Of a DNA stretch of 14,395 nucleotides, positions 8,637 to 14,395 are shown piece after piece; within the stretch, counting starts at the first letter, position 1; every line of letters starts with the position of its first letter. Position numbers and translations under genes: made by a program. The stretch lies in IMG/VR virus record IMGVR_UViG_2671180986_000005. One strand, written 5' to 3'. Source of the DNA: a virus (Duplodnaviria; Heunggongvirae; Uroviricota; Caudoviricetes). The notes under the pieces were generated by a model. That model was not told where the DNA came from and searched no databases. It saw only the letters and a list, made by a program, of their open reading frames with translations.

Positions 8637-12380
<3,744 letters not shown>

Positions 12381-12406
<26 letters not shown>

Positions 12407-12926
12407 TCAGCAACCCCGGTATCAGTTCATCCAGCGCGGCTGCTTTGTTCATGGCTTTGATGATATCCCGTTTCAGGAAATCAACATGTCGGTTTTCCAG
12501 TTCCGGAAAACGCCGCTGCACCGACAGGGGGATCCCGTCGAGAATACTGGCAATTTCACCTGCGATCCGCGACAGCACGAAAGTACAGAATGCGGTTTCC
12601 ACCACTTCAGCGGAGTCTCTGGCATTTTTCAGCTCCTGTGCGTCGGCCTGCGCACGCGTAAGTCGATGGCGTTCGTACTCAATAGTCCCTGGCTGGAGAT
12701 CTGTCTCGCTGGCCTGCCGCAGTTCTTCAACTTCCCGGCGCAGCTTTTCGTTCTCAATTTCAGCATCCCTTTCGGCATACCATCTTATAACGGCGGCAGA
12801 GTCATAAAGCACCTCATTACCCTTGCCACCGCCTCGCAGAACGGGCATTCCCTGTTCCTGCCAGTTCTGAATGGTACGGATACTCGCACCGAAAATGTCA
12901 GCCAGCTGCTTTTTGTTGACTTCCAT
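12381..12926 (-). CDS. nu1: terminase small subunit gpNu1 (winged-HTH cosB-binding)
   Basis: 181-aa ORF MEVNKKQLADIFGASIRTIQNWQEQGMPVLRGGGKGNEVLYDSAAVIRWYAERDAEIENEKL...; N-terminal HTH; located directly downstream of cosB. Confidence 0.95.
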
Positions 12927-13103
12927 TGTTCATTCCACGGACAAAAACAGAGAAAGGAAACGACAGAGGCCAAAAAGCCCGTTTTCAGCACCTGTCGTTT
13001 CCTTTCTTTTCAGGGGGTGTTTTAAATAAAAACATTAGGTTACGGCGAAGAAGAACGGAAACGCCTTAAACCGGAAAATTGTCATAAATAGCGAAAACCC
13101 GCG
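12927..13103 (-). promoter_or_regulatory. cosB: terminase Nu1-binding region with three R elements (core CGTTTCC), two in one orientation and one inverted
   Basis: Core GGAAACG/CGTTTCC occurs three times between cosN and the Nu1 ATG: about 12952-12966 (aggaaacgacag), about 12991-13006 (ctgtcgtttcctttc, inverted) and about 13053-13065 (gaacggaaacgcc). Arrangement as lambda R1, R2, R3. Confidence 0.65.
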
Positions 13104-13115
13104 CGCCTTCCGCCC
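13104..13115 (-). other. cosN (terminase nicking site, 12-nt cohesive-end sequence) with cosQ-side flank to about 13150
   Basis: Minus strand reads ...gatccgacaggttac GGGGCGGAAGGCG CGCGGGTTTTCGCTATTTATGA...; flanks on both sides match the lambda right end / left end junction as I recall it. Coordinates are within 1-2 nt. Confidence 0.7.
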
Positions 13116-13150
13116 CGTAACCTGTCGGATCGCCGGAAAGGACCCGCAAA

Positions 13151-13253
13151 ATGATAATAATTATCATCTACATGTCACAACGTGCATCTACGCCATCAAA
13201 CCACGTCAAATAATCAATTATGACGCAGGTATCGTATTAATTGATCTGCATCA
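13151..13253. repeat. cos-flank element copy 1 (~105 bp), begins with 17-bp palindrome ATGATAATAATTATCAT; runs into masked block
   Basis: Direct repeat with copy 2; last ~60 bp nearly identical (cgccatcaaaccacg..aaataatcaattatgacgcaggtatcgtattaattgatctgcatca). Reverse complement resembles the last ~110 bp of the lambda genome as I recall it. Confidence 0.7.
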
Positions 13254-13376
13254 NNNNNNNNNNNNNNNNNNNNNNNNNNNNNNNNNNNNNNNNNNNNNNN
13301 NNNNNNNNNNNNNNNNNNNNNNNNNNNNNNNNNNNNNNNNNNNNNNNNNNNNNNNNNNNNNNNNNNNNNNNACGAA

Positions 13377-13486
13377 ATGATAATTATTATCATCTATATA
13401 AGGTTTATCACAACATGTGTGTACGCCATCAAACCACGAGAAATAATCAATTATGACGCAGGTATCGTATTAATTGATCTGCATCA
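13377..13486. repeat. cos-flank element copy 2, begins with palindrome ATGATAATTATTATCAT
   Basis: About 85 percent identical to copy 1 with small indels in the middle; preceded by masked block 13254-13371. Confidence 0.7.
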
Positions 13487-13547
13487 ACTTAACGTAAAAA
13501 CAACTTCAGACAATACAAATCAGCGACACTGAATACAGGGCAACCTC

Positions 13548-13733
13548 ATGTCAACGAAGAACAGAACCCGCAGAACAACAACCCGCAACATCCGATTTCC
13601 AAACCAGATGATTGAACAAATTAACATCGCTCTTGATCTGAAAGGTTCAGGAAACTTTTCAGCGTGGGTTATTGAAGCCTGCAGAAGAAGGCTGTCAACA
13701 GAGAGTTCGGGTATGAATTACATAATTAAGTAA
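13548..13733 (+). CDS. small basic protein (61 aa) with ribbon-helix-helix-like pattern; possibly a YlcI/YnfO-type (DUF3950-like) cos-adjacent prophage protein
   Basis: ATG with AGGG 7 nt upstream; MSTKNRTRRTTTRNIRFPNQMIEQINIALDLKGSGNFSAWVIEACRRRLSTESSGMNYIIK: basic N-tail, then RNIRFP (beta strand), NQMIEQINIAL (helix), glycine turn, AWVIEACRRRL (helix), as in Arc/CopG-type proteins. Family assignment is from memory, not a search. Confidence 0.55.
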   Translation: MSTKNRTRRTTTRNIRFPNQMIEQINIALDLKGSGNFSAWVIEACRRRLSTESSGMNYIIK

Positions 13734-13847
13734 CATGGTGTTCACAGAACACGCAGTTACCGGACACATCAGTTTTCCATTCGCTCCCTGGCAGTACAGG
13801 CTTCCCCTCTGACGGGATAGCCTGAAAAAATAACACAGAAAATTATT

Positions 13848-13856
13848 TGTTATAAT
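13848..13856 (+). promoter_or_regulatory. candidate extended -10 promoter (TGtTATAAT) without a clear -35
   Basis: tgt tataat at 13848-13856 within the AT-rich ORF-poor region; a transcript from about 13863 would be antisense to the small minus-strand ORF at 13866-13997. Confidence 0.25.
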
Positions 13857-14395
13857 TAATATAACTTACTCAAAAAAAAGCGACGAGAAAATCAGCATCA
13901 ACGAACAATAAGCGCCAATACGTGATAACAAATGGCAGCCATATTTATCTGCAGTATAAGCAATGGACAGGATAACCACACCAGAAACCGTCAGCATAAA
14001 ATCCATTTGAACTTCCCCGGACAAAATCGACTCATCTAAAGATTTACAGCTCTTTTTATTATTAATATGTTAAAAGCAAAATAAACAGATGTTCAATAAC
14101 ACGAATACAAAAACGTGCTGAAATTCAATGAATCCATTTCTGTGTCATCAATTAATAGTGATAAACATCCGGCTTCTTCCACCATCGCACCGGACAGGCG
14201 ACTATGAGGGGACAACGCCGCGCTCCGTTAACGCGGTAAACCCCGGTGTGTATCGTTTTTGATTATCCCCGCACACTCGCGCAGAGGAGTCTCCCTGTCG
14301 GGCTGCGGTCTCTGTTAATGAGGGAATACAGCGACGATACGGCGCATTGAGGTGTACTGGCAATAGCGGACACTACCATTTGTTCTTTTTTTAAG

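What the first reader, a model, noticed from the sequence alone, without database searches (positions are those of the whole stretch)
13734..14395. About 660 bp with no ORF of 60 aa or more next to cos, in an otherwise gene-dense phage
Downstream of the RHH-like gene there is no ORF of 60 aa or more on either strand, and none runs off the right edge (the longest open stretch entering from the edge is about 130 nt). The region is AT-rich from about 13820 to 14160 and then GC-richer with several short GC stems (e.g. ccgcg-9nt-cgcgg near 14217-14235). It contains a perfect extended -10 element on the plus strand (TGtTATAAT, 13848-13856) and two mutually antisense short ORFs: a 43-aa hydrophobic peptide on the minus strand (13866-13997, MLTVSGVVILSIAYTADKYGCHLLSRIGAYCSLMLIFSSLFFE, poor RBS) and a 35-aa ORF on the plus strand (13932-14039). 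The position between the lysis genes and cos is a known moron site in lambdoid prophages (bor in lambda). The layout would fit a small-RNA locus or a type I toxin-antitoxin-like pair, but that is speculation.
Basis: partly seen in the sequence, partly recalled or inferred. Interest (0 to 1): 0.6.

Follow-up and report, generated by a model that had tools for sequence, protein, structure and literature searches.

The report
Conserved phage RNA fold plus moron
The "empty" 660 bp is a patchwork of an IS600 tip, a ~185-base element shared by nearly all lambda-like phages that behaves like a folded RNA inside the late transcript, and a small inserted cassette with an unproven 46-codon membrane-peptide gene; I found no support for the proposed small-RNA or toxin-antitoxin pair.

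Summary

The region has three unrelated parts.
1. 14348-14395 is the end of an IS600 copy.
2. 14161-14347 is a sharply bounded module of about 185 nt. It occurs in lambda itself, 434, Stx phages, Salmonella SPN3UB and K-12 DLP12, always between the lysis and packaging genes.
   - Across 61 distinct versions, 97% of cells in 35 proposed base pairs stay paired, and 12 pairs show changes on both sides.
   - G·U substitutions fit only the late-gene strand.
   - It matches no Rfam family.
   - It is most likely a structured RNA within the late transcript. Its function is unknown, and the lambda interval that holds it is reported to be nonessential.
3. About 13704-14160 is a variable moron slot. Sibling prophages carry the Hfq sRNA HnrS there. 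This window carries an unrelated AT-rich cassette with a positionally conserved promoter-like site and a PGAP-annotated orphan 46-aa hydrophobic ORF. The evidence that this ORF is coding is weak.

No sRNA signature or antisense partner supports a type I toxin-antitoxin reading. Interest is moderate and rests mainly on the RNA module.

The parts
13548..13733 (+). YlcI/YnfO-family (DUF3950) gene, 61 aa. It forms the left flank of the finding. Its last ~10 codons (from about 13704) already belong to the variable cassette.
   Evidence: Pfam PF13132 at 9e-19 and NCBIfam NF041551. Similarity to Sakai ECs_1967 and to lambda ends at about 13682-13703.
13704..14160 (.). Variable 'moron slot' cassette: AT-rich, specific to E. 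coli prophages.
   Evidence: Present in 734 of 5426 complete E. coli genomes at 97% identity or more, plus one clade at 80.5%; only 2 phage records hold it. Other phages have different content at this position. GC is 0.27-0.41.
14067..14096 (-). Predicted sigma-70 promoter for ORF46 (TTGAAC, 18-nt spacer, TAACAT).
   Evidence: It is the top-scoring site on this strand in my PWM scan of the window, and it sits at the same position in the 80%-identical clade as TTGAAT-18-TAACAT. This is a prediction only.
13866..14006 (-). ORF46 (MDFMLTVSGVVILSIAYTADKYGCHLLSRIGAYCSLMLIFSSLFFE): orphan ORF with two hydrophobic segments, same orientation as the late genes.
   Evidence: PGAP annotates it as WP_000347013.1. 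The frame is kept in the diverged clade, with dN/dS 0.32, but the randomisation test gives P=0.18. Shine-Dalgarno pairing is -5.7 kcal/mol, equal to the large terminase gene's. No homologues outside E. coli and no family match.
13848..13856 (+).
   Evidence: Present, but at chance level, and it becomes TGcTATAGT in the diverged clade. No downstream terminator.
14043..14071 (+). Promoter-like TTTACA-17-TATGTT.
   Evidence: Found by the scan tool and by my PWM scan. It is not among the top sites in the diverged clade, and no terminator or sRNA signature follows it.
14161..14347 (-). Conserved module read on the late-gene strand: candidate structured RNA. Helices in window coordinates: H1 14340-14334 with 14256-14250; H2 14328-14318 with 14274-14264; H3 14307-14303 with 14284-14280; H4 14295-14293 with 14288-14286; H5 14195-14189 with 14173-14167.
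   Evidence: The covariance model gives a single hit in the window, 14167-14347 (-), 194.6 bits. 97% of cells pair, and 12 of 35 pairs show changes on both sides, against 6.6-8.6 in shuffles (0 of 500) and at most 5 in slid controls. 118 G·U cells against 13 A·C cells; sign test p=0.0007. No Rfam match.
14216..14238 (-).
   Evidence: A hairpin is predicted at this position with at least six unrelated stem sequences across phages (CCGCG/CGCGG, CUGUG/CGCAG, CUCAU/AUGGG, GCAGC/GCUG, CGGCGA/UCGCUG, ACGCG/CGCG). It is absent from lambda-type versions.
14348..14395 (-). Terminal 48 nt of an IS600 (IS3 family) copy, inserted exactly at the 5' boundary of the module.
   Evidence: The same junction in three complete genomes is annotated 'IS3-like element IS600 family transposase'. 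IS-free relatives continue into the Rz stop codon 9 nt further on.

Best explanation
The gap has three independent pieces.

(1) 14348-14395 is the end of an IS600 that landed between the spanin gene Rz and the next element.

(2) 14161-14347 is an ancient, sharply bounded module of about 185 nt that lambdoid phages keep between the lysis cassette and the packaging genes. Read on the late-gene strand, it folds into a nested two-helix domain (H1/H2) enclosing two small hairpins, followed by a variable hairpin and a 3' hairpin with a conserved purine-rich loop. I infer that it works as RNA within the Q-antiterminated late transcript. The most likely role is a processing or stability signal, or the precursor of a processed regulatory RNA. 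It is an accessory element, not an essential one.

(3) About 13704-14160 is a moron slot. Here it holds an AT-rich cassette with its own sigma-70-like promoter and a 46-codon ORF for a small peptide with two hydrophobic segments, oriented with the late genes.

Shown: the anatomy, the distribution, the pairing statistics, and the absence of homology. Inferred: transcription, the RNA role, and translation of ORF46.
For: IS600.

Module distribution. It is in 398 phage records, including 434, Stx phages and Salmonella SPN3UB. It is in lambda at 46867-47033 and in K-12 DLP12 between borD and ybcV. Its two boundaries are sharp and the flanks on both sides are unrelated: Rz, bor/iss, Rha, KilA-N, DUF6979 or IS600 upstream; ynfO, DUF1398, hnrS, terS or cos downstream.

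Module structure. In 25 diverse sequences, 97.1% of cells pair, against 30-60% when partners are slid, and 12 pairs change on both sides against 6.6±1.5 in shuffles (0 of 500). The figures are the same for 61 distinct covariance-model hits. The Salmonella versions swap 3 base pairs in H2 and up to 5 in H5. 118 G·U cells in 20 pairs against 13 A·C cells in 6 pairs (p=0.0007); only 85% of cells pair on the other strand. RNAalifold gives -28.5 against -7.1 kcal/mol for the two strands. Frameshifting indels within the module argue against a coding sequence.

Cassette. for distribution; for the conserved promoter-like site; for the Shine-Dalgarno pairing; for the PGAP calls in both clades.
Against: Module. 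The single-sequence folding energy is not better than shuffles on either strand (z -0.47 and +0.42). On the window's own sequence the consensus fold is -42 kcal/mol (-52.5 at best when those pairs are enforced) against an MFE of -64.4 for a different fold. Six of 63 versions break pair 160-182 of H5. Diversity is limited to Escherichia, Shigella and Salmonella phages, and recombination blurs how independent the changes are. I saw no expression data for the module. The title of Hernandez et al. [quoted passage not shown]

ORF46. It is an orphan. Substitutions are spread 8/6/10 over the three codon positions, and amino-acid conservation is not beyond chance (P=0.18). The ORF region is no better conserved than its flanks. 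No convincing terminator follows it.
Confidence: 0.6

Rival explanations
1. Type I toxin-antitoxin pair. ORF46 would be a membrane toxin, and an antisense RNA started from TGtTATAAT (13848-13856, plus strand) would overlap its 3' end and control it.
For: A small hydrophobic ORF (GRAVY 1.11). A perfect extended -10 placed so as to transcribe antisense across the ORF. The predicted 5' leader pairs over the Shine-Dalgarno sequence.
Against: The extended -10 is at chance level and is altered in the diverged clade. No plus-strand terminator. The antisense RNA has no unusual fold (z -0.17). No match to any toxin family in Pfam, NCBIfam, PHROGs or 1.8 billion representative proteins. PADLOC was not searched. 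Typically one copy per genome (median 1, at most 3), unlike most E. coli type I families, which is my own knowledge.
Confidence: 0.08
2. The AT-rich cassette encodes an HnrS-like trans-acting Hfq sRNA on the plus strand.
For: The same slot in Sakai Sp9/10/12 encodes HnrS, with its terminator abutting the module. There is a plus-strand promoter-like site at 14043-14071.
Against: No similarity to hnrS. No Rho-independent terminator before or within the module on the plus strand. That promoter-like site is not kept in the diverged clade. No Rfam hit.
Confidence: 0.05
3. Nothing functional. The cassette is decaying filler with a spurious ORF, and the module is conserved only because it is young DNA spread by recombination, serving at most as a homology 'linker' for module exchange.
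For: ORF46 is an orphan with weak coding signal. The cassette is 97-100% identical in most carriers. The lambda interval is reported as nonessential. MFE z-scores are not significant.
Against: The module persists at 75-100% identity across E. coli, Shigella and Salmonella phages while both flanks are replaced repeatedly at fixed boundaries. Compensatory and strand-biased substitutions are not expected of neutral DNA. The cassette keeps its ORF and promoter-like site at 80% identity.
Confidence: 0.2
4. The module acts on the other strand or as DNA. It would be an insulator or terminator for the leftward, lysogen-expressed genes (ynfO, hnrS, DUF1398 upstream; bor downstream), or a single-stranded DNA structure.
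For: All known slot genes are transcribed antisense to the late genes and towards the module. The plus strand of the module begins C-rich. G·T wobble is also tolerated in DNA hairpins, which is my own knowledge.
Against: Only 85% of cells pair on the plus strand, against 97% on the late strand, and the alifold energy is -7.1 against -28.5 kcal/mol. No hairpin followed by a T-run on the plus strand. HnrS carries its own terminator. bor has its own 115-183 bp upstream region outside the module.
Confidence: 0.07

Closest known systems
hnrS locus (HnrS, formerly EcOnc10/11/12) of E. coli O157:H7 Sakai prophages Sp9, Sp10 and Sp12 (PMC13502914; PMC4104026 Table S2)
   Same: It occupies exactly the same slot, between the DUF3950 (ynfO-like) gene and the conserved module, in sibling lambdoid prophages, and it is an AT-rich accessory insert.
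   Different: HnrS is a 66-nt Hfq sRNA on the strand antisense to the late genes, with a clear promoter and Rho-independent terminator. The window's cassette shares no sequence with it, has no such terminator, and its only coherent feature is an ORF on the late strand.
Lambdoid morons such as bor/iss and the lambda DUF1398 gene (ybcV family) in the Rz-cos interval
   Same: Presence or absence between conserved flanks, deviant base composition, and a predicted promoter of its own.
   Different: Those genes are transcribed leftward in lysogens and have recognisable protein families. ORF46 has no family, points the same way as the late operon, and is not shown to be expressed.
Type I toxin-antitoxin systems (hok/sok, ldr/rdl, ibs/sib, zor/orz)
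   Same: A short hydrophobic ORF with a possible antisense promoter.
   Different: No homology, no defined antisense RNA gene, and typically one copy per genome.
Structured processing and stability signals in phage polycistronic mRNAs (T7 RNase III sites, lambda sib); named from my own knowledge
   Same: An irregular long-range helix (H1+H2, about 18-20 bp with internal loops) embedded between functional blocks of a long phage transcript, with conserved structure and variable sequence.
   Different: No cleavage or stability data exist for it. It has extra hairpins and conserved loops. No sequence or Rfam relation. It lies in a lambda interval reported to be dispensable.
Prophage sRNAs PasA-D, AgvB, AsxR and STnc100
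   Same: Non-coding RNAs carried by the late regions of lambdoid prophages.
   Different: They lie elsewhere: at the PR' moron site, or between tail genes I and J for PasB. None matches this window.

Membership tests
Type I toxin-antitoxin system | Small hydrophobic toxin ORF | tested here: met
   46 aa, GRAVY 1.11, two hydrophobic segments.
Type I toxin-antitoxin system | Dedicated antisense RNA gene (promoter plus 3' end) overlapping the toxin mRNA | tested here: not met
   There is only a chance-level TGnTATAAT, which is not conserved. No plus-strand terminator. Antisense RNA fold z -0.17.
Type I toxin-antitoxin system | Homology to a known toxin family | tested here: not met
   No match in Pfam, NCBIfam or PHROGs, and no remote homologues. 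PADLOC was not searched.
Type I toxin-antitoxin system | Toxicity on overexpression, neutralised by the RNA | not testable with these tools
   Needs an induction experiment.
HnrS / Hfq-dependent prophage sRNA | Sequence or covariance-model similarity to hnrS or to any Rfam sRNA | tested here: not met
   No match to the hnrS core with up to 3 mismatches; blast aligns only ynfO and the module; Rfam gives nothing at E<=10.
HnrS / Hfq-dependent prophage sRNA | Promoter followed within about 50-250 nt by a Rho-independent terminator | tested here: not met
   No terminator-like site on the plus strand in 13734-14395.
HnrS / Hfq-dependent prophage sRNA | Hfq binding and a discrete transcript | not testable with these tools
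   I did not locate this cassette in the Sakai record, so I could not check it against the Sakai Hfq-CRAC peak list.
Moron (Hendrix/Juhala sense) | Present or absent between conserved flanks in related phages | tested here: met
   Slot census across 118 loci; the cassette was found in 16 of them.
Moron (Hendrix/Juhala sense) | Base composition unlike its neighbours | tested here: met
   GC 0.27-0.41 against 0.47-0.61 in the terminase genes to the left.
Moron (Hendrix/Juhala sense) | Own promoter and terminator | tested here: inconclusive
   A promoter-like site is conserved in both clades. Only weak AT-rich hairpins follow the ORF.
IS600 (IS3 family) | Terminal sequence identical to annotated IS600 copies | tested here: met
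   Window 14348-14395 aligns into loci annotated as IS600 transposase. The IS body lies outside the window.
YlcI/YnfO (DUF3950) | Pfam and NCBIfam profile match above the curated cut-offs | tested here: met
   PF13132 at 67.5 bits (cut-off 25); NF041551 at 35.2 bits (cut-off 30).
Any Rfam RNA family (for the 14161-14347 module) | Covariance-model match | tested here: not met
   No hit over the module in the window, lambda, SPN3UB or P13374, even at E<=1 to 10.
Conserved structured RNA (generic criterion) | Base pairs kept through compensatory change beyond controls, with strand bias | tested here: met
   12 of 35 pairs change on both sides (0 of 500 shuffles reach this; slid controls at most 5). 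97% of cells pair. G·U to A·C is 118:13.
Conserved structured RNA (generic criterion) | Thermodynamic stability beyond shuffled sequence | tested here: not met
   z -0.47; the consensus fold is 12-22 kcal/mol above the MFE on the window sequence.

The most novel reading that the evidence does not exclude
Lambda and most of its relatives (434, Stx phages, Salmonella SPN3UB, K-12 DLP12) would carry a previously undescribed structured RNA domain of about 185 nt inside the late transcript, between the lysis and packaging genes. It would be dispensable for plaque formation yet kept through repeated replacement of both flanks. It would act as a processed regulatory RNA or as a processing or stability switch. 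An alternative pairing of the central GGGRAUA segment with a downstream UCCC segment would let it adopt two states.
Probability: 0.4. Interest if true: 0.65.

Novelty: new member of a known kind. Interest (0 to 1): 0.5.

Why it matters
If the module is a functional RNA, then the best-studied phage carries an unnoticed conserved RNA element in a region long written off as nonessential, and thousands of E. coli prophages share it, including Shiga-toxin phages. It would give a handle on how the 25-kb late transcript is partitioned or stabilised, or on a new phage-derived regulatory RNA. The fixed boundaries of the module also mark two insertion points where virulence-related cargo (bor/iss, hnrS) enters these phages. 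The ORF46 cassette is in about 13% of complete E. coli genomes, including O157:H7, so a membrane peptide expressed from it would be a widespread accessory factor with no assigned function. The negative result also matters: this gap should not be catalogued as an sRNA or toxin-antitoxin locus on present evidence.

Tried and rejected
1. PasB, the Storz-lab prophage sRNA that is widespread in ExPEC. Its probe is absent from the window, and its gene lies between tail genes I and J in E2348/69.
2. AgvB, AsxR and the E2348C_1409/1408 sRNA candidate. All lie at the PR' moron site upstream of the holin gene.
3. I first mapped EcOnc11/12 onto the invariant core of the module. This was an artefact. The Table S2 coordinates are about 137 nt lower than NC_002695.2, as shown by the Rfam AgvB position and by requiring the three copies to be identical. 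The true locus is hnrS, in the adjacent slot.
4. I looked for the ORF46 cassette in Sakai Sp15 and Sp4, to compare it with the Hfq-CRAC peaks. Neither prophage has it.
5. A decayed remnant of DUF1398, a TonB-like gene, bor or the 74-aa ORF. tblastn found nothing.
6. Remote homologues of ORF46. The word-indexed search found only near-identical E. coli copies; the exhaustive HMMER search added only partial matches to short stretches of much longer, unrelated proteins.
7. A mini-ORF at the start of the module (ATG CGC ... TAA). It is broken in lambda-type versions.
8. The module as the bor promoter. bor brings its own 115-183 bp upstream region, and phages without bor keep the module.
9. An alternative helix between the central GGGRAUAAU and the downstream GUUGUCCCC, which the window's MFE fold uses. 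It pairs in 79.5% of cells and is not clearly above controls.
10. Literature searches for the peptide, the protein accession, the module core sequence, ybcV/borD with sRNA, and ybcV with Hfq. Nothing relevant turned up.

Full report
**Setting.** The window is a lambdoid prophage read with its late genes on the minus strand. The terminase genes are at 12381-12926 and 10481-12406. Window 13116-13253 matches the right end of lambda (48502-48365), so cos lies near 13105-13116. The 61-aa ORF at 13548-13733 (+) is a YlcI/YnfO (DUF3950) gene. The finding covers everything to its right.

**The observation.** It holds.
- There is no ORF of 60 aa or more, and nothing longer than 129 nt is open at the right edge.
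- GC is 0.27-0.41 from 13800 to 14150, then 0.55-0.58.
- TGtTATAAT is at 13848-13856, but a match to that pattern is expected 0.16 times per window by chance, and 30 of 200 shuffles have one.
- Both short ORFs exist. The minus-strand one extends to an ATG at 14006 (46 aa).

**Piece 1, IS600.** The last 48 nt (14348-14395) align into loci annotated as an IS3-family IS600 transposase. IS-free relatives continue from 14347 into the stop codon of the spanin gene Rz 9 nt further on.

**Piece 2, the GC-richer 14161-14347.**
- Distribution. Similarity searches show that this part is far more widespread than the rest. It is in 398 phage records, including 434, Stx1 and Stx2 phages, Shigella phages and Salmonella phage SPN3UB. 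It is in lambda itself at 46867-47033, and in K-12 DLP12 between borD and ybcV.
- Boundaries. Its two edges fall at the same nucleotides everywhere, while the flanks are unrelated. Upstream one finds Rz, bor/iss, a Rha-like gene, KilA-N, DUF6979, a 74-aa ORF, or here IS600. Downstream one finds ynfO, DUF1398, a TonB-like gene, hnrS, terS or cos.
- Not coding. It carries frameshifting indels, and its one mini-ORF is broken in lambda.
- Not bor's promoter. bor brings 115-183 bp of its own upstream sequence.
- Predicted fold. RNAalifold on 63 unique versions gives a coherent fold on the late-gene strand (-28.5 kcal/mol) and almost none on the other strand (-7.1).
- Covariation. I added Salmonella-type versions found with a second pattern scan. 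For 25 diverse sequences this gives 35 pairs, with 97.1% of cells paired against 30-60% when partners are slid. Twelve pairs change on both sides, against 6.6±1.5 in column shuffles (0 of 500) and at most 5 in slid controls. A covariance model built from this alignment hits the window once, on the minus strand (194.6 bits). An alignment of 61 distinct hits gives the same figures.
- Strand. Substitutions that keep pairing only as G·U on the late strand fill 118 cells in 20 pairs. The mirror class (A·C) fills 13 cells in 6 pairs (sign test p=0.0007). On the other strand only 85% of cells pair.
The ccgcg-9-cgcgg stem is a hairpin realised by at least six unrelated stem sequences in different phages.
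- No Rfam family matches the module in the window, lambda, SPN3UB or P13374.

**Caveats on the module.**
- Single-sequence folding energies are no better than shuffles.
- On the window's own sequence the consensus fold is 12-22 kcal/mol above the MFE. The MFE uses an alternative pairing that is not clearly supported across phages.
- Some versions break a pair of H5.
- The title of Hernandez et al. [quoted passage not shown]
- I saw no expression data.

I therefore read the module as a structured RNA within the late transcript, with an accessory role: a processing or stability signal, or the precursor of a processed regulatory RNA. I rate the RNA reading as probable and the specific role as a guess.

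**Piece 3, about 13704-14160.**
- This is a variable slot. Similarity of the DUF3950 gene to its relatives stops at about 13682-13703. The module begins at 14161.
- In Sakai prophages Sp9, Sp10 and Sp12 the slot holds EcOnc12, EcOnc11 and EcOnc10. I first mis-mapped these onto the module, because the published coordinates are about 137 nt lower than the current record. They are now characterised as HnrS, a 66-nt Hfq sRNA that represses hha (PMC13502914). Its terminator abuts the module.
- The window's slot holds something else: no similarity to hnrS, no plus-strand terminator, and no Rfam hit.
- The cassette is in 734 of 5426 complete E. coli genomes, including O157:H7, at 97% identity or more, plus one clade at 80.5%.
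- PGAP annotates a 46-aa (45-aa in the diverged clade) hypothetical protein on the late strand in both clades.
- The frame is kept and dN/dS is 0.32. But differences are spread 8/6/10 over the codon positions, and a randomisation test gives P=0.18. The ORF is no better conserved than its flanks.
- It has no homologue outside E. coli and no family.
- In its favour: the best sigma-70-like site on that strand (TTGAAC-18-TAACAT, 14096-14067) is kept at the same position in the diverged clade. Its Shine-Dalgarno pairing equals that of the large terminase gene.
- The cassette is not a remnant of DUF1398, a TonB-like gene or bor.
- I read it as a moron that may express a small membrane peptide, with about even odds that the peptide is real.

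The moron-site idea is right, and an sRNA in this slot has a direct precedent. For this window, however, neither an sRNA nor a type I toxin-antitoxin pair has support beyond a hydrophobic ORF and a chance-level -10 element that is not conserved.

**Verdict.**
- The gap is explained anatomically.
- Part of it is ordinary: the IS end and an accessory slot.
- Part is an unresolved orphan cassette.
- Part is a good candidate for an undescribed conserved RNA structure in lambdoid late transcripts.
- Overall: new member of a known kind, moderate interest.

Noticed in passing
window 13110-13490 (N-run 13255-13371): The N-run is flanked by two diverged copies of the cos-proximal sequence. 13110-13253 is 100% identical to a DLP12-like prophage and 93% to lambda. 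13375-13682 is 98% identical to the JE86 prophage, which has a single copy. This could be a tandem partial duplication, or a masked or scaffold join between two prophage types.
   Followed up: partly
window 14347/14348: IS600 sits exactly at the 5' boundary of the conserved module. This is the same nucleotide where other phages carry bor, Rha, KilA-N, DUF6979 or a 74-aa ORF. The identical module/IS600 junction recurs in three complete genomes at 95% identity.
   Followed up: partly
window 14007-14031 (-) and 12927-12950 (-): The translation-initiation region of ORF46 (TTTTGTCCGGGGAAGTTCAAATGGA) resembles that of the small terminase gene Nu1 (TTTTGTCCGTGGAATGAACAATGGA), by my count about 19 of 27 positions. 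The resemblance is not statistically significant.
   Followed up: partly
window 12946-13012: A long near-perfect inverted repeat between cos and Nu1 draws spurious microRNA-family hits in Rfam (E 0.07-0.4, far below the gathering scores).
   Followed up: no
L148, L149, L150, L151 (Sakai NC_002695.2): The coordinates in Table S2 of Tree et al. 2014 are about 137 nt lower than in the current Sakai record. Used as they stand, they put EcOnc11/12 on the module core by coincidence.
   Followed up: yes
L156 1535-1738, L009 2315-2726, phage 434 and 1W records: Several records annotate 'Rz-like spanin' or hypothetical-protein ORFs over the module. Given its indels and RNA-type covariation, these are probably over-calls.
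   Followed up: no
L010 2441-2602 (plasmid carrying iss): In plasmids that carry iss, blastn aligns only about 95 nt of the module (window 14247-14340), upstream of iss, next to a partial spanin pseudogene. The covariance model still scores it 90 bits.
   Followed up: no
L035 5056-5235 and 6006-6185; L062 10747-10855: One viral contig carries two full copies of the module about 950 nt apart, and another carries an extra partial copy.
   Followed up: no
window 14264-14274 with 14201-14211 (minus strand): The window's MFE fold pairs GGGGAUAAU with GUUGUCCCC, in competition with helix H2. The 5' and 3' partner segments both contain CCCUCAU. Support across phages is weak (79.5% of cells paired), so a two-state switch remains only a possibility.
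   Followed up: partly
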